Origin: Shigella phage vB_Shig_1KOFFS
Strand: one strand, 5' to 3'
Sequence record: PV615260
DNA: 48,622 nucleotides
Both the position numbers and the translations under genes were made by a program. The notes beneath the pieces are model-generated. The model was not told the DNA's origin and searched no databases. It worked only from the letters and a program-made list of their open reading frames with translations. Position 1 is the stretch's first letter. Each line of letters starts with the position of its first letter. Of this stretch, positions 673 through 48,622 are shown one piece after another.

Positions 673-1803
673 ATGTCACCTAAAATCACAGACGAAGAAT
701 TCCTGGCCGCCCGCGAAGAAGGTAAAACATACCGCGAGATCGCGGAAGAGTTCGGCATGAACATTCGAAGCGTTGAACGTCGCGGCGTTCGCCTGGCGCG
801 ACAAGGACACCTACACGGAAACGCCCACGTTGCGAAGCATATCCCGGACGGCTTCGGCGTCAAAGGCACGTCGACGATGATTCGCGCGGACGGCTCCGAG
901 GTCGTTCGGTGGGTCAAGTCGGAAGTAGACCGCGATCGCATGGTCGCGCTTATGGAGGCAGCGCAGGCGGCTTTCTGCGAAGACCTTCCGCGAGCCGAAC
1001 CGCAACCGCTGGATGAATCGAAGTTCTACATTGAAGATCAGCTTGCCCTGTACCCGATCTTCGACTTGCATATTGGGGCAATGGCGCATAAGCATGAATG
1101 CGGCGAGAACTATGATACCAGCACGGCAGAGAAGGTTCTAAACCGCTTCTTTGATTATTCCGTTTCGGTTGCTCCGCAATCACAAAAGGCGGTTTTGTTG
1201 GTCGGCGGTGACTTCCTTCACAGTGACGGCCTGGACGCAGTAACCCCGGCAAGCGGTCACGTTCTCGATCAGGACAGCCGATACGCAAAACTTGTTTATG
1301 TTGCCATTCGTTCGCTGCGTCGCGCCGTTTCGCTACTGCTTAACAATCATGCAGAAGTTGAAGTGCAGGTGATTGAAGGCAACCACGACCAGGCCGGGAT
1401 GATCTGGCTACGCGCAGCGCTGGCGGCGTTCTATGAGAATGAACCGCGCGTTTTCGTTGATGTTAGTCCGGCGATCCTGCATCGCACCTTGTGGGGCAAA
1501 ACCATGCTGGGATATACTCATGGCCACACGATGAAAAAGCCGGAAACGCGCCTTGCTGCGATGGCTACCGACTTCCGTAAGGAGTTCGGCCAGTGCGACT
1601 ACATTTACACGCATTCCGGCCACTGGCATCACCAGACTGTAACGGAACACTCGTTAGGCATTGACGAAGTGCATGGCCAGTTGGGCGCAAAAGATGCCTA
1701 CGCAGCACGCGGCGGATGGCGATCATATCGGCAGGCTGCGGTGATTCTGTACAGCAAAGAATATGGCGAAGTAGGTCGCTTTATCTATCGCCCGAACATG
1801 TAA
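673..1803 (+). CDS. Calcineurin-like metallophosphoesterase with N-terminal helix-turn-helix domain
   Basis: Phosphoesterase motifs DLHIG, GGDFLHSDG and GNHD in order; N-terminal segment TYREIAEEFGMNIRSVERR resembles a sigma region-4 type HTH. Confidence 0.6.
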   Translation: MSPKITDEEFLAAREEGKTYREIAEEFGMNIRSVERRGVRLARQGHLHGNAHVAKHIPDGFGVKGTSTMIRADGSEVVRWVKSEVDRDRMVALMEAAQAAFCEDLPRAEPQPLDESKFYIEDQLALYPIFDLHIGAMAHKHECGENYDTSTAEKVLNRFFDYSVSVAPQSQKAVLLVGGDFLHSDGLDAVTPASGHVLDQDSRYAKLVYVAIRSLRRAVSLLLNNHAEVEVQVIEGNHDQAGMIWLRAALAAFYENEPRVFVDVSPAILHRTLWGKTMLGYTHGHTMKKPETRLAAMATDFRKEFGQCDYIYTHSGHWHHQTVTEHSLGIDEVHGQLGAKDAYAARGGWRSYRQAAVILYSKEYGEVGRFIYRPNM

Positions 1804-3034: not shown

Positions 3035-3250
3035 ATGCGAGAATTCATCAACGCGGCAACCAATAGCAGCGGTGGCGTTGCCCTCGCGGGATCTGCAACC
3101 GGGCAATTAATCATTGCTGCCATTGGCTTATTTTTCATGATTCTATTCGGCTCCTTCGGCGCGTGGTTGCGCTGGCGAGATTCAAAGGCGCTTCGTGAAG
3201 CGCTGGAAGTCGGGGATATCAAAACGGCGATGAAGATCAGGAGTAAATAA
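3035..3250 (+). CDS. Holin, probably pinholin
   Basis: 71-aa product with long hydrophobic N-terminal region and charged C-terminus, immediately upstream of a SAR endolysin; RBS AGAGG. Confidence 0.6.
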
Positions 3251-3251
3251 C

Positions 3252-3734
3252 ATGGGGATTAAAACGCGGGTTACATTCGCGGCGGCGGTGGCGATCGCGG
3301 TCGCGTTCCTCCCCGAAGTGGAGGACACGAAATACAATGTTTATATGGATATCGCTGGCGTCCCGACAGTATGCGAAGGCATCACAGGCCCGGACGTTAT
3401 CAAGGGGAAAACCTATACCCGGTCAGAGTGCGACGCGCTTTTAACCAAGCATATCCAGGTGGCGAAGCGAACCGTTGACAGCAAAATCAAAGTCGATGTT
3501 CCGGATACCTTCAGGGCGTCGATGTACAGCTTCACGTTCAACGTTGGCGGCGGCGCGTATTCTGGCAGCACCATGCTGAAATTAACGAACCAGGGCCGAT
3601 TGCGCGAGGCGTGCGAGCAGCTATATCGCTGGACGTACTACCGCAACCCGAAAACGGGAAAGATGGAGAAGTCGAAAGGCTTGTATAATCGCCGGGTTCA
3701 GGAATATCAACTATGCATTAAGGATCTGAAATGA
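3252..3734 (+). CDS. SAR endolysin (GH24 lysozyme)
   Basis: Hydrophobic N-terminal signal-anchor-release segment ([15 protein letters not shown]) followed by the canonical E-x8-D-x5-T catalytic triad ([16 protein letters not shown]). Confidence 0.8.
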
Positions 3735-4156
3735 GCACATTAAACTTTCAACGAGCGCTGGCCATCGGCTTTATCGTGTGGGCGGCTGCCGTTGTTTCCG
3801 GTTGCGCGTCAAGCGTCCCAATCCTTTCCGATCTGGTTGGTAGCAAGCCGGATATGACGGCGCAAGTAGGCGCGGAGAACGTGAAACAGGCGGTTGGCGT
3901 GACCAACAAAACGGACACGTCGAGCAGGCAGGAGACCACGTTTAAGGAGTCGGCTGTAGGTAAAGTTGACACGTCGAACAAGAAATCCGTAACGACCTCC
4001 AGCATTCACGCCAACCAGATCACGGCGGACAAGATCGAGATCCGTAATGATGAAAGCGGAAGCCTGGTTCCGTGGCTGATTGGTAGCATTGGGGTAGTAA
4101 TGCTGGCTATCGGGGTGTTCGGTATTTGGCGGGAACGAAAAAATAAAGGGGCGTAA
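3731..4156 (+). CDS. Unimolecular spanin (lipoprotein with C-terminal transmembrane domain)
   Basis: Signal peptide with lipobox VVSGC at N-terminus and hydrophobic helix [22 protein letters not shown] at C-terminus, as in T1 gp11. Confidence 0.75.
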
Positions 4157-4168
4157 TGCCCCTTTTTC
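4146..4168. terminator. Bidirectional rho-independent terminator
   Basis: Stem GGGGC/GCCCC with loop gtaat, flanked by an A-run upstream and a T-run downstream; ends the + lysis operon and the - accessory operon. Confidence 0.75.
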
Positions 4169-4690
4169 TATATGTACCGCTTGACGTGCAATAGCGCTAC
4201 TCCATCTTCATCGTTAAGACCATGTTCAACCGTGTTGGTTGCGGCCATTCCTTGATAGAGCAAGATGAGCGCGGCACGCAAGTAATTTTCTGGTGTGATC
4301 TGTTTCACGCAAACAAGCCTGTGAACTTCCGTTATCAGATCTTCCACCTGGTTTCCCGAAAAGCTGTTCATCACTGAGTTGGTCAAGGTGCATCATCTCC
4401 CACATATATCGGTTATTCATCCCTTCGAACGACCGGAAATCAAAGCCTATCTCCCTGTTATCCGGCCCCGTACACCACACAGCGCCGTTTTTTCCGTCAA
4501 GGTATCCATTCGTATAGCTTCGCGCTAAAAACTCCTTAGAGACCATTGAGGCGAACATACGTTGCGACACGTTGGCAGCTTTTGCCAGGCGAGGCGCTTC
4601 GCGGTGCATGTAAACGAACTTCGCAAAATCCTGCCGGGTGAACTCCCGGCGAGATTCGCAGAACTTGTAAATGTCAAGAATGAACATCAA
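4168..4690 (-). CDS. hypothetical protein with apparent frameshift
   Basis: ORF 4226-4690 and ORF 4168-4386 overlap in different frames; protein-like composition switches frame near the A4/T4 run at 4359-4362. Confidence 0.4.
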
Positions 4691-6259
4691 TTACCTCATG
4701 AACGACGGGTTGATAAAGACTTCGGAATCCATCACGCAGATAAAGCCTAATTCCTCCATCTTCGGCAATAAGCGTTCCTTAATCTTTTTGCTCACCCCAG
4801 CCTGGCCTTTGAAGATCTTCAGGTTGCGGCAGGCGTTATAAATGCCCTGGACGGTCATAACACCTTTTGCCTGCTTGCAACGACTGGCGATAACGTCATA
4901 CAGCGCTTTAATTTCCGCGCCCTCACCAGCAAATCCGGAAGAGTCAGCAGATGACAGGTAAGTTTTGCTCAACTCATGGAACATGATGATCGCTTCGTCA
5001 ATGGTTGCCGTGTCGATCTTCTTCGAACGCTTACCGCCGGGTTGCCAGTTCCGGATCGTGTGGATTACCGACGCCAGACGCATAACCTGCTTATCAAACT
5101 TACCCATCGCGCCGCGAAGCATAGTATGCGAATACTTGCCGCCGTCACCTAACTCAGGTTCTAATTCCTGGCGGGCCTTATTCAGTCTCCGCATTGCCGC
5201 GTCAGTAACCTGCAACTTAATGTTCGACTCGCTCATAATGTCATGAATCAGCCGGAAGTAATCCGCCTTCAGTGACTGGTCGATCGGCTCATAGGTCGAA
5301 TTCCCGTTTTCGTCGATGAACACGCGTTCGCCCAAACGTGTTTGCTCACGAACCAAAAGGAAACGCTCCGAGACACCGATCCCGCGAGAACCCGCTTGCA
5401 TGATGGCGTCGATGGTTTCATCCTGGGCAATTACGCAAATGCAGCCCAAAGCAACGAATGACATATTATTGCTAACGTCGGCACGAGCGATCGACACGTG
5501 GCCTTTATCCCATGCTTTGAGCACCAGTTCGCTGTTCGTCTTCTTGCCGCCATCGTTGCCATACGTGATCCCCAAAAGGCTGTTAACCGCAGTTGCCTCA
5601 TCGGAAATAACGGCAAAGTTTCCCTGGCGGTTGTTAATCTTCGCCAGACCTTCCGGGGTGGTATCGGATACCGGGAAAGTTAGGTCACACAATTTTTCAA
5701 GTTTCTCTTCCAGTTCGTCACGATCTTCGAAAAGTTTCACCATATCAGATTGCGACAACTCCCCTTTAAGCGCCTGCTTGTTGGCGGACAACTTCGCCAT
5801 GATTTTCTTACGCTCCTTCTTGCGCGACTCGTTAATGCGCTCGACTTCGGCCACGATCGGATCGATGGCCAGCGAGTTAATGGCAGACTTACCAGCGGAA
5901 GGCGGCTGCGACGTGATAACGTAAAGCGTCGTCGGTTGCTCACTGCCGTGATACTCGACCCAAAAGCGACCCATCATCGCGGCGGATACGGTTCCGAGAA
6001 AGTGCATGTAAGCGGATGATTCCGGGAACTGAACAGATCTGGCGGCATTGAGCGCCAGCTTGCCGACCACATCGTAATCATTGGCGATCGAGATTGTTGG
6101 GTATTTATCCGCGTTTACGTCGATATCTTTGGGCTTTGGCCAGAATGAAACGGAGTCACGATACCCGTTCGCACGAATCGCAACGCGCAGAGGACTGATC
6201 CCCTCCCTTTCTGCGATGGCGATAATATCTTGCGGTGATACGCGGTCATTTAAAAACAT
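4691..6259 (-). CDS. Large P-loop NTPase-like protein of unknown function (522 aa)
   Basis: Walker A-like PPSAGKS and Walker B-like AVISDEAT; RBS CAGGAGCAAGGG before ATG at 6259. Confidence 0.55.
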   Translation of the reverse strand: MFLNDRVSPQDIIAIAEREGISPLRVAIRANGYRDSVSFWPKPKDIDVNADKYPTISIANDYDVVGKLALNAARSVQFPESSAYMHFLGTVSAAMMGRFWVEYHGSEQPTTLYVITSQPPSAGKSAINSLAIDPIVAEVERINESRKKERKKIMAKLSANKQALKGELSQSDMVKLFEDRDELEEKLEKLCDLTFPVSDTTPEGLAKINNRQGNFAVISDEATAVNSLLGITYGNDGGKKTNSELVLKAWDKGHVSIARADVSNNMSFVALGCICVIAQDETIDAIMQAGSRGIGVSERFLLVREQTRLGERVFIDENGNSTYEPIDQSLKADYFRLIHDIMSESNIKLQVTDAAMRRLNKARQELEPELGDGGKYSHTMLRGAMGKFDKQVMRLASVIHTIRNWQPGGKRSKKIDTATIDEAIIMFHELSKTYLSSADSSGFAGEGAEIKALYDVIASRCKQAKGVMTVQGIYNACRNLKIFKGQAGVSKKIKERLLPKMEELGFICVMDSEVFINPSFMR

Positions 6260-37708: not shown

Positions 37709-39997
37709 TTAAAGTACCTCTATCTCAACAGAATAAGGGGTGGTTGTAGTTGCCCCTGGGTTCGCAGGAAGAATAAAACGAATCTTGCGACCTGAGTTCA
37801 CAGCATAGGATAAGCTGTTATCATCATTCGCATTTTTTACAGTAAGACCATAGTTCTGGCCGATGAAGTTTCTGGCCTGAGTGGGTGTTACTGTTTTAAG
37901 GAACGTCGCTGTTTGTACTGGACTGGTGTTGGTAACAGCCAACCCATCGGTAGTTGCAATATTTGCACCGCCAGACATAGGGACGACTATACATGGGAAG
38001 TTAGTGCTACGAACGAACACATTCCACTCCTGAACAACAGCGTCACCAAGGTCGTTTCCGTTGCGAGATGTTAGCTTGACTCTCAACGTCATTCCAGGAA
38101 TTAGCCCGTTAAGGGTGTAAACCTTACCAGACTGCCGCTCATCAACAGTGAACGTACCGTTAAATCGTATTTTCATCCCTACAGGGTTAATAGTCGGCAG
38201 CGCGTCAAAATCAGACTCATAAAAAGTCATGGCGTTAGTGTACATGCTGGACTGGAAGATGATGTTCAGGAAATCCAGACCCCAACCACCAGCCTGATTC
38301 GACCAGTTTTCCACTCTACTCCGGAACCGGGCATTGAGTCCACGCACGTTAATGGAGTGAACAACCTCAGTTGCCGGTACAGTAGTTTTGGATATACCGT
38401 AACCATCCGCAACTATTTTTATTACACCAGTTTCAGCAATAATGCTATGGTCTTCCAGACGAACAATGTCATGCCAGGAACCAGCGCTCATCCACTGAGT
38501 AAGCTTAATATCGTGCCCGTACACGAGACATTCACCAGCAGCAGTCCCGTCACCGACAACCATTACCTGCGTTGCTTGTCCAGGAACGCCAGCATTAAAT
38601 GATAGGTCAACCACCGTTCGGAAGAAGCTATCAGTTGCAATGCCGTTGTGGTTACGCAAGAATGTAATCCCTCGCCGAGATTTGCGAACCATAACATTTT
38701 CAACGGTACATCCTTCCGTCCACGCAAACTCGTTATACAGGGACACTACTGCACCATTAGAATTCCCGGTATACCCAGTAACCCACAAGTTAGACGCATC
38801 ACCTTCCCACATATCAGACAGACGAACTGGTGTAGCATCTACACCATCATTCCCTTCGACAAGGTAAGATGCAGCACCCCAAAAACGGAATCCGTTGATT
38901 CCGCCGCCAGACCATGCCTGCTGCGAAGTGCCATCTTCTTTGAAGCGGGAGAATGTAATTCCAACATTATTACCGGTGTGCCAAAGGTTTGGGCCGCGCA
39001 GAGTCCCTACCGAATAGGATAGGATGTAGAAAGGCTTATCACCACAGTAAAACCGCAAACCACCCTGCAAGACATAACCCTTATCAAATCCGGGGTTTTC
39101 AATCTTGGCCTCATAAATGTTAAATGTACGCGAAGCCTTGTACATGTTAAGGAGAACAGGATCAATGGTATCTCCGGCTCGTAATCCGAAGTAACTTGAG
39201 GTTAACTCTTTAACACCTTTACGGCGGATGACCTGTCCATAATCATTGATAATCTGGCACCCATTATCATCAGTATAAGTGGTGTCTGATGTAAGCGAAT
39301 GGCAGTACCAAATACCGCCTCCGGCATTTTGTCCAGAAGTATGTTCTTTCAGAAACACTTGTTGACCAACAGATGAAAACTGCAAAGACCTTAAAGCTGT
39401 GAGATTAGCACACTGACCGATATTTTTCAGCCCTGAACTTTGAGCGAGAACAGCTAGAGTCGACTGATCGCCAGCGTTATCAATGATGTGCTGAACTTGG
39501 TCTCTTGCAGTCTCTACTGCCACCTCGGACGCTTTGGCGTTGGTCTCTGAAGTTTTTGCAGCGGTTTCAGACGCCGCAGCAGCCGCAGCGCTCGTGCCTG
39601 CGGATTGTGAATCATCCTTTACCTGGTTGGCAAGATTTTGCAGCGACTCAAAATCGAACGTCTTAAAGAAATCGACTGCATCCGCAATTACGGTTTCCTG
39701 CGACTGGTAGTAGCGCAGCGTTTCAGCAACATCTTGCGCCAGGCCGTCAACGGTTAGCGAGTCGCTTAAAAGGATCGCGTAGTCGCTAGACGCTACGACA
39801 GCGCCTTTTGTGGTGATAGCTTTAATTTCAGTATCGCTAACCACCTTGTTTACGACGGCCATTTGAATTGGTGACGACAAAAACATAATCGTTGCGCCGG
39901 GGCGAATAAGCGAAAGCGAAGATTGCCATTTTGTGCCAGTCCCGGTAACGGTTCCGTCTGCGGCCATAGCCGCTTTGCCTTCTCTGTATAGTGCCAT
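37709..39997 (-). CDS. Lateral tail fibre / tailspike protein
   Basis: 762-aa ORF; N-terminal Ala/Ser/Thr/Glu-rich segment with [11 protein letters not shown]-type repeat as in side tail fibres; long Gly/Asn/Thr/Val-rich beta-type body. Confidence 0.7.
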
Positions 39998-40053
39998 TTT
40001 AAAAGCCTCTTATGTTGGTTGAGTAACGCAGATAATAGCATCAATGAACAGAT

Positions 40054-40076
40054 AAAAAAAGGAGCCTTTCGGCTCC
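40054..40076 (-). terminator. Rho-independent terminator (- strand) after ssb
   Basis: On the - strand: stem GGAGCC gaaa GGCTCC followed by T7. Confidence 0.7.
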
Positions 40077-40089
40077 TTTAGTTGTCAAA

Positions 40090-40551
40090 TTAGAACGGGA
40101 TATCATCATCGAAATCCATCCCCGTATTCCCTCCGCTGTTTTGCGTCTTAGGCGCTTGTTGCGGCTTGGGTTGTTGAGGCTGCCCCCACCCGGATTGCTG
40201 ATTGCCGCCGTTTTGCGAAGGCTCGCGCTGGCTGAATTCGAGTTGTGGCATAATCATTTCATTGTGGCTGTAAATTGTGCCGTTGTGCTCGCGGTTCACG
40301 ATCTGAAGCGTCCGGCAGGTGACGCTGATCACCTTATCCATTTGCAGCGCTTCGTCGTACCACTTAATCATGTTTTCTTTTGCAAAGAAAACGGCGCGGT
40401 AGTTCGTGTAAATTGTTTCGTCCTCGCCATCACGATTGCGGATCTTCATCCGCTCCGACAGGTCTACGGCGTACATTTTCCACGGCCCGTTATTATTACT
40501 GCCTTCCTTGATGTACGGTTCTTTTCGGATTACACCTGTTACAACATGCAT
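40090..40551 (-). CDS. ssb: Single-stranded DNA-binding protein
   Basis: Gly/Gln-rich linker and acidic C-terminal tail MDFDDDIPF typical of SSB; start probably the second ATG (40551). Confidence 0.85.
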   Translation of the reverse strand: MHVVTGVIRKEPYIKEGSNNNGPWKMYAVDLSERMKIRNRDGEDETIYTNYRAVFFAKENMIKWYDEALQMDKVISVTCRTLQIVNREHNGTIYSHNEMIMPQLEFSQREPSQNGGNQQSGWGQPQQPKPQQAPKTQNSGGNTGMDFDDDIPF

Positions 40552-40587
40552 TGTCATTCCTATGGGGCGGTTTCCCGCCCGGTTAAA

Positions 40588-41244
40588 TTAATTGAAAGAT
40601 GAAATATCTTGTGCTTCTGGTTCAGGTTTTGATTCTACCTTTTCCGGCTCGCGCTTCGCAACCTCTTGCGGTTTACCAGGGTTAAAGCCGTTAGCCGGGG
40701 TGACTTTCAGTTCTGCCTGGCGTTTGGTGATATCGTCTTCAGTCATTTTCCACTCCGCAGGCGTTAACGTTTGTTTCGCCATCTTATAGATCTCACGAAG
40801 CGATTCGAGATCTTCGCACGCGTCAATGCGTTTTTTGAAGTCTTTCGGTGTCATTTTCGTAATTTCTGCATCATCATCCGCCTGCTTGATGCCGAGCGCT
40901 GCGGCTAGTGCATAGCGGCGGGCGTAAGATGTTGTTGAACCGTATGCTTGTTCGACTGTTTTGCTGATCGGCATGTTGTACTGAAACGCCATGAACTCGC
41001 CGCTTTCATGCAAAAACATAGTTTCGAGGTGCATAACCTTTTCGGTGCTGGTATCCATCATGGATTGAATGACCATAATTTTATTCTTCTCCAGCGCCGG
41101 GGAAATAGCGTCGAGGATATCCCCAAGATTCGCATAGGTGTTCCCAAGATGGTTGTTCTTCCCGCTTTTCTTCGCGGCCACGAAGCCAGATTTTGCCTTG
41201 ATTAATGCGGCTGCGATGGTGGTAAATTTTTCAGATGTACGCAT
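40588..41244 (-). CDS. erf: Erf-family single-strand annealing protein
   Basis: Segment YGSTTSYARRYALAAALGI typical of Erf recombinases; sits between exonuclease and SSB. Confidence 0.65.
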   Translation of the reverse strand: MRTSEKFTTIAAALIKAKSGFVAAKKSGKNNHLGNTYANLGDILDAISPALEKNKIMVIQSMMDTSTEKVMHLETMFLHESGEFMAFQYNMPISKTVEQAYGSTTSYARRYALAAALGIKQADDDAEITKMTPKDFKKRIDACEDLESLREIYKMAKQTLTPAEWKMTEDDITKRQAELKVTPANGFNPGKPQEVAKREPEKVESKPEPEAQDISSFN

Positions 41245-41303
41245 GATAAAGTTTCCTTTTCCTGATTGGTAATGCGCACTATATCACAAGTGCGCACCAG
41301 TGT

Positions 41304-42350
41304 TTAGCTATTTGTGCCGTATACGTCCGGGAACATGTATTTCACAAACTGCGGAGTAGGCAAAACGACTTCCGCCGCGTTTGACTCATATGATGGCCAT
41401 GAATCGTGCTTCACGCATTCCGCATACTGATGAATCACGCTTTGATACTGCTTGCGACCGATCTCGATCTGCTTGCTGGTCAGGGTGAACGCCAGCGGAG
41501 CAAACGGTGATTTTTTCTCCTGCGTTAGCAGTCTGACAACTACCGGGCGTTTTTCGTTGTAGGTCTTCACGAACAGATCGCGCTGCAATGCCATCTTGAG
41601 ATAGTAGCCCAAATTGAAGGCGAGTCGCCCGAAATCGTCCGGCTTGGAAGATTGCGTGGTTTTGTAGTCGGTAATCACCACGACCTCGAAAACCTCATCC
41701 GGGTTGAACCCCCACTCCTTGATGAGTTCGGGATCGGAAACAACGTCAACATGATCGAGTCGAACCTTAACCTTGACGCCGAAGATCTCACCGAAGATTG
41801 ACAATTCACGCTGTGCGGTAGGCGATTCGATACATGCGGCGTGTCGCGGGTTAGCCAGCATCACGCTGCGCATTTGAACAACGGCATCGAAATCAACATC
41901 CTTAACCAGCTTGCGCCCGGAGTTCATCGCGGCGCTTTCGTCGCACAGTTCAATCGCCCACCAAACATTTACGTCAATCCCGGCGCGATATGCCATTTCC
42001 AGAAGTTCCGGGTAATCCTTGTTGGACGTCCCAATCAGGCCACACGCTTTCAGCTTCGCAGACAATGCCGACTTCGACGTAATCAGATCTTTAACCTCGC
42101 CAGGAGAAGTCGCCCGCAGATACTCGCCATTAAATTTTGCCGTCTCAAGCATACAGGTATGCGAACAGGTTCCGAACGCCAGCGCGGCGGTTTCCTCACG
42201 CACCTTGTATTTCCAGTGCGCCGGGGATGTTGCGTAAATCTCGCCGAGGCTTGAGCCGCTAACGTACTCCGCGCACCAGGAATCAGGATCGTGATATTGC
42301 TCGTTAGTCAATTCACTGCTTGTGTATGCCCTGAAAATTGCTTCAGCCAT
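41304..42350 (-). CDS. Recombination exonuclease (PD-(D/E)xK family)
   Basis: 348-aa ORF upstream of erf and ssb; D..E.K-like segment VVITDYKTTQ; position in recombination module. Confidence 0.55.
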   Translation of the reverse strand: MAEAIFRAYTSSELTNEQYHDPDSWCAEYVSGSSLGEIYATSPAHWKYKVREETAALAFGTCSHTCMLETAKFNGEYLRATSPGEVKDLITSKSALSAKLKACGLIGTSNKDYPELLEMAYRAGIDVNVWWAIELCDESAAMNSGRKLVKDVDFDAVVQMRSVMLANPRHAACIESPTAQRELSIFGEIFGVKVKVRLDHVDVVSDPELIKEWGFNPDEVFEVVVITDYKTTQSSKPDDFGRLAFNLGYYLKMALQRDLFVKTYNEKRPVVVRLLTQEKKSPFAPLAFTLTSKQIEIGRKQYQSVIHQYAECVKHDSWPSYESNAAEVVLPTPQFVKYMFPDVYGTNS

Positions 42351-42383
42351 TGATATTGCTCCATTTGTGGTTTCGTTGCGTTA

Positions 42384-42425
42384 AGTATACGCATGACGAT
42401 TCCCGGCGCAAGTCAAAAAGTGCTA
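42384..42425 (-). promoter_or_regulatory. Promoter-like cassette variant upstream of the exonuclease operon
   Basis: On the - strand: TAGCACTTTTTGACT, 21-bp spacer, TATACT. Confidence 0.4.
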
Positions 42426-42468
42426 TCTGCGGTTGGTCAAAAAATGAGCGAAATTTACGTAAGATTTA

Positions 42469-42484
42469 GTAAGATGCATCTTAC
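42469..42484. promoter_or_regulatory. Perfect 16-bp palindrome GTAAGATGCATCTTAC (operator-like)
   Basis: Exact self-complementary sequence read directly. Confidence 0.7.
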
Positions 42485-42603
42485 GTGGTTTTTTCCATAT
42501 ATTTCATAAAGTTAACGCAAATCGGTAAGATGGTAAGATCCCTATAGGTAAATATCCATGAAAAAACTGGCGCGAAATCCAGCGAAAAAAGACACGTACC
42601 ACG

Positions 42604-42715
42604 GAGAAATCTTACCAAGATAAGTATAGAGAGATAGAGTAATAATAATAATATTGTTATTTATCATATACTTACTATCTATGTATCGCGGTTAATTGGT
42701 TAAATTTTGCGCGAA
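42604..42715. repeat. Inverted repeat copy B (about 110 bp, 47-bp core at 42636-42682)
   Basis: Reverse complement of 9786-9897; core identical apart from one base. Confidence 0.85.
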
Positions 42716-42721
42716 ATTTAC

Positions 42722-42737
42722 GTAAGATTAATCTTAC
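42722..42737. promoter_or_regulatory. Perfect 16-bp palindrome GTAAGATTAATCTTAC (operator-like)
   Basis: Exact self-complementary sequence; shares the GTAAGAT half-site with 42469-42484. Confidence 0.7.
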
Positions 42738-42796
42738 TAAATCTTACCTAAAGTGGTTCGACCAGTTGCAAGCCACTGAATTTCAGGCATAAAAAA

Positions 42797-42825
42797 AGGT
42801 AAGACTGATTTTCTCAATCTTACCT
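42797..42825. promoter_or_regulatory. Inverted repeat AGGTAAGA-N13-TCTTACCT (operator-like)
   Basis: Same GTAAGA half-site in a wider-spaced inverted arrangement. Confidence 0.55.
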
Positions 42826-42845
42826 AAATTCTGGTCAATATTTAA

Positions 42846-43805
42846 TCATAGAAGAGATGATGCCTTGTATAACTTACGCTCAAAGCCGAGCTTGAAGTTG
42901 TCACCGTTCGGAACGATAACCTTTAGATCCCGATCGTCTGCGGCTGCCAGCATATCCCGATCTCCACGACGGCAAACTACACGCATTTCTCGCTTACCTT
43001 CTCCGCCCTTGCCTTTATACCTGTACGCCACGATCTCGACGTTTGAAGGTATGATGCAGGCCCAAACGTCGCACTTGAACGAACTGGCAATATTGAAGTG
43101 CATCGCCTCAATCCAGGATCGAGCAAGGTAAATCGGCCCGTTACCGTCGTCGCTCTGATTGGTCACTATCACCGATCCGAAGGTCAGATCTCCAGCTAAC
43201 ATCTTCTCCCGGCCTTCTTCATCAATGAACAGGATATTGCAATACTCATCATCCAGCCCATCTTCATGCACGAGTTGCATCGGTAGCGCGTGAATTAGCT
43301 CCTGTCTGCCGTTCTCGTGAGTTTTTACGCCAACCTGATATGATTTGATATGCTCATTTTCAATGCCCTCATAGAGCGTTACAGGCGTGCTATCGACGGC
43401 CTCCGTTCTGTTTAAAACTGCCAGCACTCTTTCATGATCTGCCATCTTGCCGTAGTCATACCCGTTATCACGAGCTACCTGCTTGTTTCTCTTGACTACG
43501 TATTCTTGCGGAACCTTGCCGAGATAGCGCCCAAGAATGTTGATGCACTCGCTATACGGCTGGCCGCTTAACTTCATTAACCAGCCGATCCCCTTATCAG
43601 CACCGCAGCCGCCACAGTATGCGCCGCCGTCGCCGCGCGTTTCTAATTTGTCAGTCCAGCGGAATCTGTCTTTGCCGCCGCAGTTCGGGCAGTCCTGATG
43701 CTTGCCGTTGAAGTATCGAGAGTGTATGCCGCAAATGTTCTGCAACGCCTCGCGCCACATGCCAGCCATGTACGGCAAAACCTCTTTTTCATCGTAAAAA
43801 TCCAC
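42846..43805 (-). CDS. DNA primase (zinc-ribbon type)
   Basis: N-terminal zinc-binding motif CPNCGGKDRFRW..CGGCG typical of phage/plasmid primases; GTG start after RBS GGAGGT. Confidence 0.7.
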   Translation of the reverse strand: MDFYDEKEVLPYMAGMWREALQNICGIHSRYFNGKHQDCPNCGGKDRFRWTDKLETRGDGGAYCGGCGADKGIGWLMKLSGQPYSECINILGRYLGKVPQEYVVKRNKQVARDNGYDYGKMADHERVLAVLNRTEAVDSTPVTLYEGIENEHIKSYQVGVKTHENGRQELIHALPMQLVHEDGLDDEYCNILFIDEEGREKMLAGDLTFGSVIVTNQSDDGNGPIYLARSWIEAMHFNIASSFKCDVWACIIPSNVEIVAYRYKGKGGEGKREMRVVCRRGDRDMLAAADDRDLKVIVPNGDNFKLGFERKLYKASSLL

Positions 43806-43883
43806 GTCGTTACCTCCAAATAAAAAACGCCTACACGAGAATGATAACCCGGCAGGCGTTTAGTGTTTAGACAAATTGTGCTA
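43806..43883 (-). promoter_or_regulatory. Conserved promoter-like cassette (- strand) upstream of primase
   Basis: Reverse complement reads TAGCACAATTTGTCTAAAC, then hairpin and TATCAT-like element, then RBS. Confidence 0.45.
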
Positions 43884-44282
43884 TCGGACTACGCGGAGCA
43901 TTTCCCGGCGGTCGCATCGGCGCGTAACTGGCTTGCCGTTGCTGTCAAACCTTAAATCTGGTCGGCAGAATGAGGCGCGGAAACCTTTGCAATTGTTCCG
44001 GCGGTAGCTCTTGTGTACGAGATAAGCGCCATCGGCTGAGATCATGCCTCGCTTGCGCCACTGCTGAACGACCTGGATGCTAACCCCCAACTCTTTTGCC
44101 GTTCCAGCGATGCCACCGAAGGCATCAATAACAAGCTCCATCCGCGCAGTCAACCCGGCGCGAACCTCATCCTTCAGTACGTAGTAACCAGTCGGGCGTT
44201 TGCGCTTCTTCTTGTCCTTTCCGCGAGATGTTCCATTGTTGCCGTTCAAAGTTCGCTTGTCTACCTTTGCCATTTGTTCCAT
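43881..44282 (-). CDS. HTH DNA-binding protein (Cro/YdaS-like), candidate transcription regulator
   Basis: Segment GTAKELGVSIQVVQQWRKRGMIS resembles Cro/YdaS-type helix-turn-helix; basic N-terminus. Confidence 0.55.
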   Translation of the reverse strand: MEQMAKVDKRTLNGNNGTSRGKDKKKRKRPTGYYVLKDEVRAGLTARMELVIDAFGGIAGTAKELGVSIQVVQQWRKRGMISADGAYLVHKSYRRNNCKGFRASFCRPDLRFDSNGKPVTRRCDRREMLRVVR

Positions 44283-44295
44283 AATTTAGCCCTCA

Positions 44296-44373
44296 TAGCA
44301 CTTTTTGTTAAACATGATAAAATATGCTATGTATTATACACGCAACCATGCTAATGACAAATTAGGATTGCAC
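44296..44373 (+). promoter_or_regulatory. Conserved promoter-like cassette
   Basis: TAGCACTTTTTGTTAAAC followed about 22 bp later by TATTAT, with an extended -10-like TGATAAAAT nearer the box. Confidence 0.45.
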
Positions 44374-44886
44374 ATGGCAAGCACAGAAGAAGACGTAGCA
44401 TATTTTAAGCGACTATTTCGTTATGAAGGCGGAACACTGATTCGCAAAGTTACAACCAGTAGTCGTGCATTCGCTGGCGACTCCGTAGGGTGCGAGAACA
44501 ACGCTGGGTATTTACAGGTAAGCGTAAAAAGCAAACCCCTATACGTTCACCGAATCATTTGGGAAATGCATAATGGGCCGATCCCAGAAGGAATGGAGAT
44601 AGATCATATCAATCAGGTCAGAACAGATAACAGAATCGAAAACCTGCGACTGGTAAGCCACAAAGGAAACCTTAAAAACCAATCAATGAACAGTGGCAAT
44701 ACTAGCGGGCAATCTGGCGTAAGCTGGTTTAAGCGAGGCGGGAAGTGGAGGGCAACAATAAAGGTTGACAGAAGGCAAATACACATTGGTTACTTCGCGT
44801 CGTTTGATTCGGCAGTTGCCGCACGAAAAGCAGCAGAAAAACAATACGGTTTTCATGATAACCACGGAGCAGAGAAAAAGAAATGA
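44374..44886 (+). CDS. HNH homing endonuclease with AP2-type DNA-binding domain
   Basis: HNH motif EIDHINQVRTDNRIENLRLVSHKGN and C-terminal AP2-like SGVSWFKRGGKWRATIKVDRRQIHIGYF. Confidence 0.75.
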   Translation: MASTEEDVAYFKRLFRYEGGTLIRKVTTSSRAFAGDSVGCENNAGYLQVSVKSKPLYVHRIIWEMHNGPIPEGMEIDHINQVRTDNRIENLRLVSHKGNLKNQSMNSGNTSGQSGVSWFKRGGKWRATIKVDRRQIHIGYFASFDSAVAARKAAEKQYGFHDNHGAEKKK

Positions 44887-46922
44887 GCTTATCGATTGAG
44901 CAACAAATAGATCTATACGCAGACAAAATACCGGCAATCCAAAAGAGATTTACCGTTGGAAATATCGTTCCGTATCCATATCAGGCTGTGGCTTATATTG
45001 AGACCGCCAAAAGAATAGCAAACTACACCGCACCGTTTTACATTAAGGCTTCGGTTTCCGCCGGGAAAACCATCATGATCGCCATGCTCGCGGCGCAGTG
45101 CAAAGCAATGAACTTACCCATGATGGTTCTAGCTCGCCAGGCTGAGATCGTGAAGCAGGATTCCGAGGAGATCAGTAACCTCGATGTTCCCAACTCCGTT
45201 TATTGCGCCGGGTTAGGAACGAAGGCCGCATACTTCCCGATTGTCGTCGGATCTGAAGGGACGGTGGTTAATGGCCTGTTTAAAATGCTGGGCGACTACG
45301 TGCCTTCAGTTCTGGCCATTGATGAATGCCACCAGGTTGACTGGCAAGATTTGGCGGAAGCGATCGCCAACAATGAATCGTTCGAGTACATGAGCCGACC
45401 GAAGGATAAGCCGTATCGCGTGAACGGGGAACTGGTCGATGCCGACCACCCCTACGACGAAAAATTCGACGACGTGGAATTCGGCGGCGGGCGCACTCAA
45501 TACACCATCGTAATCATTGAGTTAATGCGCCGTTGCCTTCAGAAGACTGGGCGCGAGCTTCGCATTGTTGGCTATACGGGTTCGGAGTTTCGCGGAGTCA
45601 TTCCGATCTTACAGGAAGACAAGAGCCAGCCGGGTTTCTGGCGCGAGCAGATCACCGACATTAACACAAACTATCTTGTCGAGTTCGGATCGGTTGTTCC
45701 CACCATTTTCGGCGATACCGAGGCGGATGGGTTGGGGTATGATCTTTCAGAATTCCACGGCTCCAGTCAGGACGGTACGCAGGATTTTAGCGCGGAAGAC
45801 TTGCGCAAGATGGAGAAGAAAATCCATGAATCCGGCGAAATGACGAAGCTGATTATGCAAAAGGTCGTTGAGCGTGCGAAAACCCGAAACGGTGTTCTGA
45901 TAACTTGCGCTGGACAGCGGCATTGCAAGGAGGCGGCGAGCTATCTACCGCCGGACGCAACATACGCGATCATCACCGAGAAGACCAACTCAAAGAAACG
46001 CGGCGAAATTTTGGATAAGGCGAATCGCGGGGAGATTAAATACATCTTCCAGGTGATGGCCCTAACCACTGGCGTTAACGTTCCGTTTTGGGATTTTTCG
46101 GTGATATTGCGCAAGATTGGATCGCTTACGTTGCTTATTCAGCTTTTGGGGCGCGGTATGCGACTTCTGAAGGACTGGCAAAAACAGCCACCTTACTCGT
46201 GGGTGAAAGAAGATCACCTTGTCTGGGATTTTGCCGGAACAATGGATGACCTGGGCCAGTTGTATTTCGATCCGATTTTGGAGCAGGCGCAATACCAAAG
46301 ACGCAAGAGCAGCAAGAACGGCCCGAAAATTTGCCCGGTATGCAAGGGCGAAAATAGCGAGTACGCCCGCCGATGCATTCATAAGGACAGTAACGGCAAT
46401 CGGTGCGAATACTTCTGGATCTCGCAGCGCTGCGAAGACCAGAAAGACCCACGAACAGGGAAGATTAAAGTAAAAGGGTGTTACGCTGAAAACGATATTG
46501 TTGCTCGCCAGTGCAGATGCTGCGGTGTTCAGCTTAAAGACCCAAATGACAATCTCACCGGGAAGCACTATACGCAAAATGACTGGTATGATGTTGTCGG
46601 GTTCGATATCGGCTTGACTCGCAATCAGTCCGGGATAATCTTCAATTACGTGTTACTGAACCATGACGGCGAGCGATTCACCGCAAGGGAAAAGTTCTTC
46701 CCGGAATCAGAGAATCAGATTTGCGGCAAGTTGTGGCGGCAAAAGGCAGTCTTCCAGCACGTTAGCGACGCGGTAATGCGCGGCAAGTTGGGTGGCATGA
46801 AAAACGCCCGCAAGATCCTTGAGTATGCGGAATACTTCCGCGCTCCGAAGCGTGTAACGCATCGCATCAACGGCAAGAAGGAGGACATTATTTCCCGCAA
46901 AGACTTTGGAGGCGAGGAGTGA
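44883..46922 (+). CDS. SF2 DEAD/DEAH-box helicase
   Basis: Walker A VSAGKT and DEAH-type motif DECHQV; C-terminal Cys clusters (CPVCKG, CRCC). Confidence 0.8.
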   Translation: MSLSIEQQIDLYADKIPAIQKRFTVGNIVPYPYQAVAYIETAKRIANYTAPFYIKASVSAGKTIMIAMLAAQCKAMNLPMMVLARQAEIVKQDSEEISNLDVPNSVYCAGLGTKAAYFPIVVGSEGTVVNGLFKMLGDYVPSVLAIDECHQVDWQDLAEAIANNESFEYMSRPKDKPYRVNGELVDADHPYDEKFDDVEFGGGRTQYTIVIIELMRRCLQKTGRELRIVGYTGSEFRGVIPILQEDKSQPGFWREQITDINTNYLVEFGSVVPTIFGDTEADGLGYDLSEFHGSSQDGTQDFSAEDLRKMEKKIHESGEMTKLIMQKVVERAKTRNGVLITCAGQRHCKEAASYLPPDATYAIITEKTNSKKRGEILDKANRGEIKYIFQVMALTTGVNVPFWDFSVILRKIGSLTLLIQLLGRGMRLLKDWQKQPPYSWVKEDHLVWDFAGTMDDLGQLYFDPILEQAQYQRRKSSKNGPKICPVCKGENSEYARRCIHKDSNGNRCEYFWISQRCEDQKDPRTGKIKVKGCYAENDIVARQCRCCGVQLKDPNDNLTGKHYTQNDWYDVVGFDIGLTRNQSGIIFNYVLLNHDGERFTAREKFFPESENQICGKLWRQKAVFQHVSDAVMRGKLGGMKNARKILEYAEYFRAPKRVTHRINGKKEDIISRKDFGGEE

Positions 46923-47326
46923 TTACAGATAAAGGGGATTACCTCGAATATTACGGCGGGCCTGTAAAGGCTTGCCCGCTTGAGAAAATCGACCAGATGA
47001 ACAGCGTTTCGTGGCTGCGGCATGAATATCCTGATTATCTGTTTTGGCATACGGTTAACGAAGGGAGCAAGCACAAAGCGAGCGCGGTTATCGATCATCA
47101 AATGGGGTTGCTGAAGGGTGTTAGCGACATTCTGATCCTGATTGGGTTCGGTGGCAAATACCCGTTCGCAGCCATTGAGCTAAAGCGCCAGGGTAAGGCG
47201 CAGGCGTCGCCAGTGAGCAAGGAGCAAAGGGAATTCCTTGCTGCCGTCCGGCGTCGCGGCGGATTCGCCGCCGTGGCCTATGGCTTCGAGCAATTCAAGA
47301 TCGCTTTCTGCGATGCCATAAAATAG
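46919..47326 (+). CDS. VRR-NUC domain nuclease
   Basis: PD-(D/E)xK-like segments GVSDILIL and AIELK; GTG start after RBS GAGGAG overlapping helicase stop. Confidence 0.55.
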   Translation: MITDKGDYLEYYGGPVKACPLEKIDQMNSVSWLRHEYPDYLFWHTVNEGSKHKASAVIDHQMGLLKGVSDILILIGFGGKYPFAAIELKRQGKAQASPVSKEQREFLAAVRRRGGFAAVAYGFEQFKIAFCDAIK

Positions 47327-47399
47327 CACTTTTTGTTAAAACCGCCCGGCGAAAGCCGGGTATCATTTCCACATCGAAACAAAGAACGGAGTGTTGAAA
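47324..47399 (+). promoter_or_regulatory. Conserved promoter-like cassette
   Basis: TAGCACTTTTTGTTAAAAC, hairpin CCCGGCgaaaGCCGGG, TATCAT, CATCGAAAC, RBS GGAG. Confidence 0.5.
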
Positions 47400-47678
47400 A
47401 TGAAAAAGATGCTGGCTTTAGTTGTTCTGTCTCTTGGTCTTATTGGTTGCAGCGAAAAACCAAAAACATATGATTGCGGTGGTGAAGCGTTCGAGGTAAC
47501 TAGCAACTATATGAAAGTTGTAAAGGGTAAGAACTCTGGCGTTGTAATTGATGGCGCTGGCGAAAATCAATATAAACTGCTTACTCCTTTTGGGTACGCT
47601 CATTATGAAGTAAACAAAAACACTATTGATGTTAGTGTGGGCGCTTTTCATAATACCTTAACCTGCGAGGTTAAATAA
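47400..47678 (+). CDS. Small lipoprotein, candidate superinfection-exclusion protein
   Basis: Signal peptide with lipobox LIGC (MKKMLALVVLSLGLIGCSE); 92 aa. Confidence 0.5.
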   Translation: MKKMLALVVLSLGLIGCSEKPKTYDCGGEAFEVTSNYMKVVKGKNSGVVIDGAGENQYKLLTPFGYAHYEVNKNTIDVSVGAFHNTLTCEVK

Positions 47679-47680
47679 TA

Positions 47681-48412
47681 ATGGCAAAAGATATCACAGA
47701 CAAAGACACTCGTGACGCATTCATCACGTTTGAGCAATTGGAGCGCGAAACGTTTATTGGCAATGCCCTTGCCACTGGCGGACACTATCAGGCTGTCAGG
47801 CCCGACAAGTTTTACCAGGTAACAGGCAACCGATACGCCGGGAGCAAAACGCCTGATATTGTGCGCGATAAGTGGGCGACCGATCGCAGCCTGATCGCAT
47901 ACATGGAAGAGCGTTATGGCCCTTACGACCTCGACGCCGCCGCAGACAGAAGCAACGCAGTTTGCCCGAAGTTCTACGACGAAAAAACGGATTGCCTTAA
48001 ACGCTGGTGGGGTAAAAACAAGCACATCTGGCTAAATCCCCCTTACTCGTTTCCAGATCCGTTTATTCTCAAGGCCATTGAGCAAATGGAGCACGACAAC
48101 CAGATCGACATTCTGCTACCCGGCGACAATTCTACTGCCTGGTTCCGTGACGCGCAGAAAATGGCAGCCGAAATTATCTGGATTGTTGCAGATGTTGAAG
48201 AGGATGATGACGGGAACCAGTTAAGCCGATCCGGTCGCCTCGCATTCATCAATGGATTAAGCGGGAAGCCAGTCGACAACAACAATAAAGGAAGTGTTAT
48301 TTTCATCATGCGCAAGCTCAAGCCGGGAGAGGAGCAAAAGACGCTTTACATTCCGGTAAGCGAGATTTGCCCGTCATTAGCTAAAAAGCGTATGCGCAAA
48401 CGTGGGGTTTAA
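47681..48412 (+). CDS. dam: DNA N6-adenine methyltransferase (phage Dam-like)
   Basis: NPPY catalytic motif (WLNPPYSF). Confidence 0.75.
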   Translation: MAKDITDKDTRDAFITFEQLERETFIGNALATGGHYQAVRPDKFYQVTGNRYAGSKTPDIVRDKWATDRSLIAYMEERYGPYDLDAAADRSNAVCPKFYDEKTDCLKRWWGKNKHIWLNPPYSFPDPFILKAIEQMEHDNQIDILLPGDNSTAWFRDAQKMAAEIIWIVADVEEDDDGNQLSRSGRLAFINGLSGKPVDNNNKGSVIFIMRKLKPGEEQKTLYIPVSEICPSLAKKRMRKRGV

Positions 48413-48414
48413 AA

Positions 48415-48622
48415 TGGAACAGATCGAGTCTTTTGCTGAATATCTTCGAATCGTTGTTGAGTTGCTTAATAAATATGGCTTCATCGGAACAGACGAGGAG
48501 AAGTTAGCCTTTGCGGATACTATTGACGGAACTTACATTGAGTTCATGGATAACGGAATCCCGATGGCTGACTGGCCAGCCATCCTTGAACGCGAGCTAC
48601 TGGAATTCAGGTCGCACGAAGG
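48415..48622 (+). CDS. hypothetical protein, 3-prime truncated by window end
   Basis: ORF starting at ATG 48415 runs off the window. Confidence 0.4.

What the first reader, a model, noticed from the sequence alone, without database searches (positions are those of the whole stretch)
43881..44886. HNH-AP2 homing endonuclease wedged between the primase operon and the helicase
A free-standing HNH gene with an AP2 DNA-binding domain sits just upstream of, and translationally coupled to, the helicase gene, beside a divergent HTH gene. Such endonucleases are mobile and can mediate marker exclusion between co-infecting phages.
Basis: partly seen in the sequence, partly recalled or inferred. Interest (0 to 1): 0.4.

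Follow-up and report, generated by a model that had tools for sequence, protein, structure and literature searches.

The report
Mobile HNH-AP2 endonuclease gene before helicase
A small selfish nuclease gene sits directly in front of the helicase gene of this Klebsiella phage; it is missing from about 95% of close relatives and travels with a rewritten start of the helicase gene, which marks it as an ordinary free-standing homing endonuclease.

Summary
Window 44374-44886 (+) encodes a 170-aa protein with an N-terminal HNH_3 nuclease domain and a C-terminal AP2-type DNA-binding domain. Its stop overlaps the helicase start (ATGA, 44883-44886). A divergent HTH regulator gene lies at 43881-44282 (-).

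The window is a T1-like Klebsiella phage (Webervirus). Of 358 database phages that have this helicase start, 20 carry the HNH gene and 338 do not. The insert begins exactly at the helicase ATG of HNH-less phages, so it uses that gene's promoter and ribosome-binding site.

The HNH gene is completely linked to a recoded version of helicase codons 1-50. Synonymous divergence from the empty allele is 0.78 there, against 0.20 from codon 51 on. All 31 fixed differences between carriers and non-carriers in about 9 kb lie in those 150 bp.

Inside carriers the cassette is three to four times younger than its flanks (pS 0.05-0.06 against 0.16-0.22). The gene is under purifying selection (pN/pS 0.22).

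This is a free-standing HNH-AP2 homing endonuclease gene, a known kind. Cleavage and target site remain untested. Interest is low to moderate.

The parts
44374..44886 (+). HNH-AP2 (HNN-AP2 type) homing endonuclease gene, 170 aa plus stop
   Evidence: Pfam HNH_3 at E 3e-23 and a weak AP2 hit. phrog_99 'HNH endonuclease' at E 5e-69. AlphaFold model pLDDT 93.7. Best solved-structure match is I-HmuI 1u3e. Present in 20 phage records only.
44542..44670 (+). HNH_3 catalytic core (residues 57-99): beta-beta-alpha-metal motif with D77, H78, N86, N90, N99
   Evidence: Pfam match covers residues 57-99. D77, N86, N90 and N99 are invariant and H78 is at least 90% conserved among 56 homologues. Model elements are E74-78, E91-95 and H96-100. 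The residues align to the D-H...N of I-HmuI.
44713..44847 (+). AP2-type DNA-binding domain (residues 114-158)
   Evidence: Pfam AP2 at E 7e-4, below the cut-off. 44 of 56 homologues match AP2. The model shows a three-stranded sheet plus a helix. Foldseek finds WRINKLED1, TEM1 and AtERF1 AP2 domains.
44883..45032 (+). Recoded helicase codons 1-50, the second half of the mobile cassette and probably the region that holds or shields the cleavage target
   Evidence: All 31 fixed differences between HNH-plus and HNH-less genomes lie at 44889-45032. dxy here is 0.25-0.28 against a background of 0.02-0.06. pS against the empty allele is 0.78 here and 0.20 for codons 51-119. The allele occurs at 96.8% identity or more only in the 20 HNH-bearing records.
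44883..44886 (+). ATGA overlap: HNH stop codon and helicase start codon
   Evidence: Read from the sequence. The same '...HGAEKK*' end with an ATGA junction is seen in a paralogous element in front of the primase gene of phage VLCpiD7c.
44283..44373 (.). Divergent promoter region and ribosome-binding site (AGGA 44364-44367), shared with HNH-less phages and taken over from the helicase gene by the HNH gene
   Evidence: The alignment shows this stretch conserved in HNH-plus and HNH-less genomes up to and including the ATG. Promoter-like sites: minus strand TTGTCA-16-TATAAT at 44360..44333 (11/12 matches), plus strand TAAACA-17-TATTAT at 44309..44337.
44883..46922 (+). RadD-like SF2 helicase gene (679 aa), the gene invaded at its 5' end
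   Evidence: Pfam ResIII and Helicase_C. phrog_16 DNA helicase. Partial NCBIfam RadD match.
43881..44282 (-). Divergent HTH regulator gene: a conserved neighbour, not part of the mobile unit
   Evidence: phrog_2856 at E 2e-75. Weak P22_Cro/YdaS HTH match. Present in HNH-plus and HNH-less genomes with no fixed differences.

Best explanation
This is a free-standing homing endonuclease gene of the HNH(HNN)-AP2 type, lodged in the replication module of a T1-like Klebsiella phage (Webervirus).

Shown:
- The gene is inserted exactly at the helicase start codon. It therefore uses the helicase promoter and ribosome-binding site, and it hands translation on to the helicase through an ATGA overlap.
- It is present in about 6% of sequenced relatives.
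- It always travels with a heavily recoded version of helicase codons 1-50.
- The cassette is much younger than the genome backbones that carry it.
- The ORF is under purifying selection and its catalytic residues are intact.

Inferred:
- During co-infection the protein binds through its AP2 domain to the 'empty' helicase 5' sequence of an HNH-less phage.
- Its HNH domain then nicks or cuts there.
- Recombinational repair from the HNH-bearing genome copies in the gene together with the recoded helicase start. The recoding makes the carrier allele uncuttable.
- The result is super-Mendelian spread and local marker exclusion.
- Four HNH-less phages carry only cassette-type codons 22-50. This suggests the break or recognition site lies in that part, which encodes the conserved PYPYQ (Q-motif) region just before Walker A. 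Such alleles would then be resistant empty sites.
For: - Domains and fold.
- Presence/absence: 20 records with the gene, about 305 with a roughly 510-bp gap in otherwise ~95% identical DNA, and 20 against 338 by helicase-start allele.
- Exact junctions: left at the shared ATG, right at 45032-45035.
- All 31 fixed differences in about 9 kb lie at 44889-45032.
- Synonymous divergence from the empty allele is 0.78 in codons 2-50 and 0.20 after.
- Within carriers, pS is 0.060 (HNH) and 0.051 (helicase codons 1-50), against 0.22 (helicase codons 51-679) and 0.16 (HTH). HNH pN/pS is 0.22.
- Carriers are not a clade in the flanks. Several have an HNH-less nearest neighbour, and the nearest neighbour shares the HNH state in 13-17 of 21 genomes.
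- Carriers come from Kenya, China, Spain, Australia and the USA.
- Paralogues sit at other intergenic sites of the replication module in relatives, one with the same ATGA junction.
- Two independent frameshifted copies fit the decay phase of a homing cycle.
- The HNH-AP2 architecture is a described homing endonuclease family (PMC10448857, PMC2248197).
Against: - No cleavage, nicking or biased inheritance has been measured, and the target site is inferred only.
- Prevalence is low (about 6%), so any drive is weak, recent, or balanced by cost or resistance.
- The same pattern could follow from one import event spread by ordinary recombination.
- The HNH-less genomes in the detailed alignment were chosen from the best matches to the window and are not a random sample.
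- The two frameshifts could be sequencing errors; one is in an A5/A6 run.
- AP2 is below Pfam's cut-off in this protein.
Confidence: 0.8

Rival explanations
1. Passive accessory gene. The HNH gene and the foreign helicase start were imported once by illegitimate recombination and have since moved among Webervirus genomes only by ordinary homologous recombination. The nuclease plays no part in its own spread, and is either inactive or used for something else.
For: Flanks recombine freely, with zero fixed differences outside the cassette. Prevalence is only 20 of 358. Two copies are frameshifted. pN/pS of 0.22 is higher than the 0.03-0.07 of neighbouring genes.
Against: A neutral 660-bp insert would not be expected to stay three to four times younger than its flanks across diverse backbones on several continents. 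The catalytic residues are conserved and the ORF is still under purifying selection. The saturated recoding sits exactly in the adjacent conserved coding sequence, which is the classic signature of target immunity.
Confidence: 0.12
2. Domesticated factor. The HNH-AP2 protein serves the phage itself, for example as a helicase-associated repair or replication nuclease, as a transcription factor acting through AP2, or as a terminase-associated HNH needed for packaging.
For: The gene is translationally coupled to a replication helicase and sits in the replication/recombination module. AP2 domains act as transcription factors elsewhere. Some phage HNH proteins assist terminases (own knowledge).
Against: About 94% of close relatives lack the gene and encode an otherwise intact helicase, so it is dispensable. 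It is not next to the terminase genes. Its family is HNH_3, typical of homing enzymes, and its closest solved relative is I-HmuI. Paralogues occur at varying sites.
Confidence: 0.05
3. Decaying remnant. The element once homed but the protein in this window is no longer active, so the gene is on its way to loss.
For: Constraint is relaxed relative to its neighbours. Frameshifted copies exist in two relatives. The window and phage 1KM2 carry lineage-specific amino-acid changes, for example Q97K, H113Q and G132D/G133R.
Against: The ORF is intact in the window, all invariant family residues are kept, and the model is confident throughout.
Confidence: 0.1

Closest known systems
HNN/HNH-AP2 free-standing endonucleases of phages: Xanthomonas phages Xp10/OP1/Xop411; multiple copies noted in T1, Rtp and T5 (PMC2248197); 'IPA-HNH' homing endonuclease genes of Vibrio phage ICP1 (PMC10448857); family defined by Magnani et al. 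2004, cited there
   Same: The architecture is the same: an N-terminal HNH/HNN nuclease and a C-terminal AP2 domain. The conserved boxes match (DH, DNR, NLR, N). The gene is free-standing and intergenic, its distribution among relatives is sporadic, and frameshift-split decaying copies occur.
   Different: This copy sits at a different site, the start codon of a RadD-like helicase in Webervirus. It carries a cleanly delimited, fully linked recoded tract of 50 codons. PMC2248197 found no conserved flanking sequences for the Xanthomonas phage copies.
I-HmuI (Bacillus phage SPO1, PDB 1u3e)
   Same: It is the closest solved structure by sequence (E 0.025) and by fold. The D-H...N catalytic arrangement is the same. 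It is a phage homing enzyme.
   Different: I-HmuI is encoded in a group I intron, acts as a strand-specific nicking enzyme, and has different C-terminal DNA-binding modules rather than AP2. Identity is about 19%.
Free-standing homing endonucleases of T-even phages (SegA-G, MobA-E; own knowledge)
   Same: The genes lie between conserved genes, cut the neighbouring gene in phages that lack them, are protected by sequence differences in the carrier, co-convert flanking markers, and cause localized marker exclusion.
   Different: Most Seg enzymes are GIY-YIG, and the Mob enzymes are HNH without AP2. Those cases have experimental proof of cleavage, which is lacking here.
Paralogues in Drexlerviridae: Tls EndY, the MezzoGao gp38 type and the VLCpiD7c D7c_00002 type
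   Same: They are 50-61% identical proteins of the same length and architecture, located in the same replication/repair module. VLCpiD7c has the same C-terminal '...HGAEKK*' end and ATGA junction with the downstream gene.
   Different: The insertion sites differ: before the repair exonuclease, after the DUF3987 helicase, and before the primase. Their targets are presumably different too.

Membership tests
HNH / His-Me finger nuclease, Pfam HNH_3 (PF13392) | Sequence match above the curated cut-off | tested here: met
   81.6 bits against a cut-off of 24.8, E 3e-23, residues 57-99. All 56 aligned homologues also match.
HNH / His-Me finger nuclease, Pfam HNH_3 (PF13392) | Beta-beta-alpha-metal fold with a catalytic His and metal-binding Asp/Asn | tested here: met
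   The model has E74-78, E91-95 and H96-100. D77, N86, N90 and N99 are invariant and H78 is at least 90% conserved. The residues align to the DH...N of I-HmuI. The top Foldseek hit is 1u3e.
HNH / His-Me finger nuclease, Pfam HNH_3 (PF13392) | Metal-dependent DNA nicking or cleavage | not testable with these tools
   This needs purified protein and a DNA substrate.
AP2/ERF DNA-binding domain (PF00847) | Sequence match above the curated cut-off | tested here: not met
   20.3 bits against a cut-off of 33.3, E 7e-4. However, 44 of 56 full-length homologues match at E<=0.01, best 1.4e-7, and 16 of the 120 listed hits carry a precomputed PF00847 hit.
AP2/ERF DNA-binding domain (PF00847) | Three-stranded antiparallel sheet packed on one alpha helix | tested here: met
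   The model has strands 116-119, 124-131 and 134-141 and helix 144-158, at pLDDT 94-98. Foldseek matches WRINKLED1, TEM1 and AtERF1 AP2 domains with probability 0.99-1.00, and 1gcc at rmsd 1.3 A over 48 columns. E-values are weak (0.06-0.25) because the domain is small.
Free-standing homing endonuclease gene | Presence/absence polymorphism at one precise site among close relatives | tested here: met
   20 carriers against 338 non-carriers. The junctions are identical in all 12 carriers aligned.
Free-standing homing endonuclease gene | Sequence differences in the carrier at or next to the insertion site, in a conserved gene (target immunity) | tested here: met
   31 fixed differences lie in helicase codons 1-50 and none elsewhere in about 9 kb. 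pS is 0.78 in that tract against 0.20 after it.
Free-standing homing endonuclease gene | The element's history is decoupled from that of its host genomes (horizontal spread) | tested here: met
   Cassette pS is 0.05-0.06 against 0.16-0.22 in the adjacent genes of the same genomes. Carriers are interleaved with non-carriers in the flanks.
Free-standing homing endonuclease gene | Site-specific cleavage of the empty allele and super-Mendelian inheritance in mixed infection | not testable with these tools
   This needs a cleavage assay and phage crosses.

The most novel reading that the evidence does not exclude
Natural Webervirus populations may show a live homing cycle at single-site resolution. 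In this reading the enzyme's target is the sequence encoding the helicase Q-motif (codons 22-50). The four HNH-less phages that carry only that part of the cassette allele (RCIP0065, RCIP0051, RCIP0013, VLCpiD7c) would be naturally selected cleavage-resistant empty sites. HNH-plus phages would then actively exclude the helicase region of HNH-less relatives during co-infection. That would matter for Klebsiella therapy cocktails that mix such phages.
Probability: 0.3. Interest if true: 0.45.

Novelty: new member of a known kind. Interest (0 to 1): 0.3.

Why it matters
The element is an ordinary selfish gene of a known family, and it is already annotated as 'HNH endonuclease' in related GenBank records. 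It has two practical uses.

First, it offers a clean natural system for studying free-standing HNH-AP2 homing, a family whose targets are largely unmapped. The system comprises 20 carriers, 338 empty sites, 4 recombinant alleles and sharp junctions. The candidate target is narrowed to 150 bp.

Second, Webervirus phages are widely isolated for Klebsiella therapy. A homing nuclease that cuts the helicase gene of co-infecting relatives would cause interference and directed recombination inside phage cocktails.

Tried and rejected
- The TTG start at 44305 from the mechanical ORF list was rejected in favour of ATG 44374.
- Other copies were sought in the window with tblastn. None were found; the next best hit has E 0.27.
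- NCBIfam gave no match for the HNH protein.
- A donor of the recoded helicase tract was sought outside the carriers with blastn in distant mode. Nothing above 90.4% identity was found, and the four best non-carrier hits are recombinants, so the source lineage is not in the collection.
- A hitch-hiking trough in the flanks of carriers was looked for. Diversity just outside the cassette is similar in carriers and non-carriers, so no co-conversion gradient is visible.
- The terminase-cofactor reading and the essential-gene reading were rejected because about 94% of relatives lack the gene.
- Literature searches for this locus (Webervirus or Drexlerviridae with HNH or homing endonuclease) found only genome descriptions and no study of this element.
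- Magnani et al. 2004 is not in the held library, so it is cited only through PMC10448857 and PMC2248197.

Full report
**What is at the coordinates.** The given range 43881-44886 holds three features:
- a minus-strand ORF at 43881-44282 (133 aa);
- a 91-bp intergenic region at 44283-44373;
- a plus-strand ORF that ends at 44886.

The mechanical ORF call starts the plus-strand ORF at a TTG (44305). The biological start is ATG 44374. It is preceded by AGGA at 44364-44367, it is the same ATG that HNH-less relatives use for their helicase, and homologues begin at that position. The product is 170 aa. Its stop overlaps the start of the next gene (ATGA, 44883-44886). That next gene is a 679-aa RadD-like SF2 helicase with ResIII and Helicase_C domains.

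The wider neighbourhood is a T1-type replication and recombination module:
- ERF recombinase at 40588-41244 (-);
- PD-(D/E)XK exonuclease at 41304-42350 (-);
- zinc-ribbon primase at 42846-43805 (-);
- HTH regulator, HNH gene and helicase;
- VRR-NUC nuclease at 46919-47326;
- Dam methylase at 47681-48412.

Megablast places the window in the genus Webervirus (Drexlerviridae, Klebsiella phages). The closest record is vB_Kpn_1KM2 at 98.5% over the locus.

**Domain content.**
- The HNH_3 match is strong (E 3e-23), as is phrog_99 'HNH endonuclease' (5e-69).
- The AP2 match in this protein is below Pfam's cut-off (20.3 against 33.3 bits).
- AP2 is supported at family level: 44 of 56 full-length homologues match it (best 1.4e-7).
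- An AlphaFold model built on that alignment is confident (pLDDT 93.7). It shows a beta-beta-alpha core at residues 74-100, followed by three strands and a helix at residues 116-158.
- Foldseek against the PDB ranks I-HmuI (1u3e) first and then plant AP2 domains (WRINKLED1, TEM1, AtERF1). AtERF1 superposes at 1.3 A over 48 columns. E-values are weak because the domains are small, but the ranking is what the two-domain reading predicts.
- By sequence, I-HmuI is also the only meaningful solved relative. The alignment runs through the D-H...N catalytic residues.
- D77, N86, N90 and N99 are invariant and H78 is nearly invariant in the family.

The protein is therefore an HNH(HNN)-AP2 enzyme. This architecture is already described as a homing endonuclease family in phages, cyanobacteria and protists (PMC10448857, PMC2248197, both citing Magnani et al. 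2004).

**Presence/absence.**
- The 510-bp coding sequence occurs in only 20 phage records, all Webervirus, at 96.7-99.8% identity and always at this locus.
- The 4.6-kb region around it matches 424 records. About 305 of them cover 89% of the query in two pieces at about 95% identity, which means everything except the HNH gene.
- A search with the first 158 nt of the helicase gene finds 358 records. The window's allele (96.8% or more) is found in the same 20 records. 323 records have an allele that is 60-80% identical (about 79-80% in the listed records), and 15 are intermediate.
- The gene is therefore an accessory present in about 6% of sequenced relatives.

**Exact anatomy of the insert.** Alignments of carriers and non-carriers show the following.
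- The two kinds of genome are collinear and nearly identical up to and including the ATG at 44374-44376.
- In non-carriers this ATG starts the helicase. In carriers it starts the HNH gene.
- The HNH gene has thus taken over the helicase promoter and ribosome-binding site. It left intact the divergent promoter region, which carries a strong minus-strand TTGTCA-16-TATAAT for the HTH gene at 44360..44333.
- At its 3' end the insert supplies a new helicase start through the ATGA overlap.
- The right junction is not at the end of the HNH gene. Helicase codons 1-50 (44883-45032) differ massively between carriers and non-carriers, and the sequences become identical again from about 45036. That point is just before the Walker A motif (ASVSAGKT).

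**Population-genetic tests.** I aligned 12 carriers (the window and L004-L014) with 9 non-carriers (L015-L023) over window 39800-48622.
- All 31 fixed differences between the two groups lie at 44889-45032, and there are none elsewhere in about 9 kb.
- Between-group divergence is 0.25-0.28 there, against 0.02-0.06 elsewhere.
- Between a carrier and a non-carrier, synonymous divergence is saturated in codons 2-50 (pS 0.78, with 26 synonymous and 13 non-synonymous differences). It drops to 0.20, with no amino-acid change, in codons 51-119.
- Codons 20-46, which include the PYPYQ Q-motif region, encode the same amino acids in both alleles although the DNA is recoded.
- Within carriers the cassette is young. 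pS is 0.060 in the HNH gene and 0.051 in helicase codons 1-50, against 0.22 in the rest of the helicase and 0.16 in the HTH gene of the same genomes.
- Carriers are not a clade in the flanks. Several have a non-carrier as nearest neighbour on one or both sides.
- Carriers were isolated in Kenya, China, Spain, Australia and the USA.
- The HNH ORF is under purifying selection, but less tightly than its neighbours: pN/pS is 0.22 against 0.03-0.07.

Taken together, a 656-bp cassette (44377-45032) has spread among diverged backbones more recently than those backbones diverged.

**Recombinant and decaying alleles.**
- Four HNH-less phages (RCIP0065, RCIP0051, RCIP0013, VLCpiD7c) have a mosaic helicase start. 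In RCIP0065, codons 2-21 are of the empty type and codons 22-50 of the cassette type, with pS of 0.05 and 0.08 to the respective parents.
- These could be products of loss of the gene by crossover inside the tract. They could also be partial conversion tracts from a break that lay downstream of the insertion site.
- Two carriers have independent one-base frameshifts in the linker between the HNH and AP2 domains. RCIP0079 has an extra A in an A5 run, and CAVLHI020000002 has lost one A. In both, the gene is annotated as split or truncated. Sequencing error cannot be excluded.

**Family context.**
- The protein family is large: 3841 phage records have a tblastn match.
- Its members occupy varying intergenic sites. 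Within Drexlerviridae, 50-61% identical paralogues sit after the DUF3987 helicase (MezzoGao and F13), before the repair exonuclease (Tls EndY), and directly before the primase (VLCpiD7c).
- The VLCpiD7c element ends with the same '...HGAEKK*' sequence and the same ATGA junction to the downstream gene.
- The window itself has only this one copy.
- The HNH gene is AT-richer (45% GC) than the genome (50.5%).

**Mechanism.**
- Shown: architecture, conserved catalytic residues, precise insertion, complete linkage to a recoded adjacent coding tract, youth of the cassette, and sporadic distribution.
- Inferred from what is known of free-standing phage homing endonucleases (the T-even Seg and Mob enzymes, and I-HmuI): in a mixed infection the enzyme recognises the empty helicase 5' sequence through AP2 and nicks or cuts it. 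The break is then repaired from the carrier genome, which copies in the gene and the recoded tract. The carrier itself is protected by that recoding.
- Whether the enzyme makes a nick, like I-HmuI, or a double-strand break is unknown.
- The position of the target is unknown within the 150 bp. The recombinant alleles weakly favour codons 22-50.

**Rivals.**
- Passive spread of a once-imported moron by ordinary recombination fits the free recombination of the flanks and the low prevalence. It does not explain the youth of the cassette, the purifying selection, or the placement of saturated recoding exactly in the neighbouring conserved sequence.
- A domesticated role (replication, regulation or packaging) is unlikely because about 94% of relatives lack the gene.
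- A decaying but still intact copy cannot be excluded for this particular window.

**Verdict.** The element is a new, uncharacterised member of a known kind. It is already annotated as 'HNH endonuclease' in related records, for example PhiKpNIH-2 gp63. I found no paper dealing with this locus. Interest is low to moderate. Its value is as a well-delimited natural system for mapping an HNH-AP2 target, and as a warning about interference between related phages in Klebsiella cocktails.

Noticed in passing
L025 (Klebsiella phage VLCpiD7c, ON602735.1) 403-924, minus strand in the locus: A paralogous HNH-AP2 gene is inserted directly upstream of the primase gene. It has the same C-terminal '...HGAEKK*' end and ATGA junction, giving a new ATG in place of the usual GTG primase start. 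It also brings a replaced upstream terminator-like hairpin. About 7 clustered synonymous differences lie roughly 90-140 bp into the primase gene, just upstream of the zinc-ribbon CPNCGG codons.
   Followed up: partly
L006 (phage F13) 35330-35872; L028 (MezzoGao) 1986-2528: A third HNH-AP2 gene, about 60% identical, sits between the DUF3987 helicase gene and a hypothetical gene in some Webervirus genomes. F13 carries both this element and the helicase-start element.
   Followed up: partly
L007 (CAVLHI020000002.1) 4530-5099; L029 (RCIP0079) 301-811: Two carriers have independent one-base frameshifts in the linker between the HNH and AP2 domains. They represent either decay of the gene or sequencing errors.
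   Followed up: partly
window 47331-47730: This is a hypervariable stretch between the VRR-NUC and Dam genes, with nucleotide diversity of 0.15-0.25 in both groups. In the window it encodes a 95-aa protein with a lipoprotein-like signal (MLKMKKMLALVVLSLGLIGC). The gene at this position (288 nt) is annotated 'Cor superinfection exclusion protein' in K64PH164C4, and other phages have a 105-nt ORF instead.
   Followed up: no
L002 (K64PH164C4) 4113-4238: An extra 126-nt ORF lies between the helicase and VRR-NUC genes. It is absent from the window and from most relatives.
   Followed up: no
L011 (K2064PH2) 3047-4133: The primase gene is annotated as two overlapping CDS, and the locus is about 118 bp longer than in relatives. 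This suggests an insertion or duplication inside the primase gene.
   Followed up: no
window 43881-44282 (-): Besides a weak Cro/YdaS HTH match, the HTH regulator gives a sub-threshold match to the NCBIfam 'carph-isopro' domain (E 5e-7, 29.9 against 38 bits). A terminator-like hairpin lies between this gene and the primase gene (about 43822-43862), so the two may not form one operon.
   Followed up: no
L026 (phage P700603) 1492-1650: This is a third, more divergent HNH-less allele of the helicase start, 74.8% identical to the window's tract. It shows that this 150-bp stretch is unusually polymorphic in the genus beyond the two main alleles.
   Followed up: no
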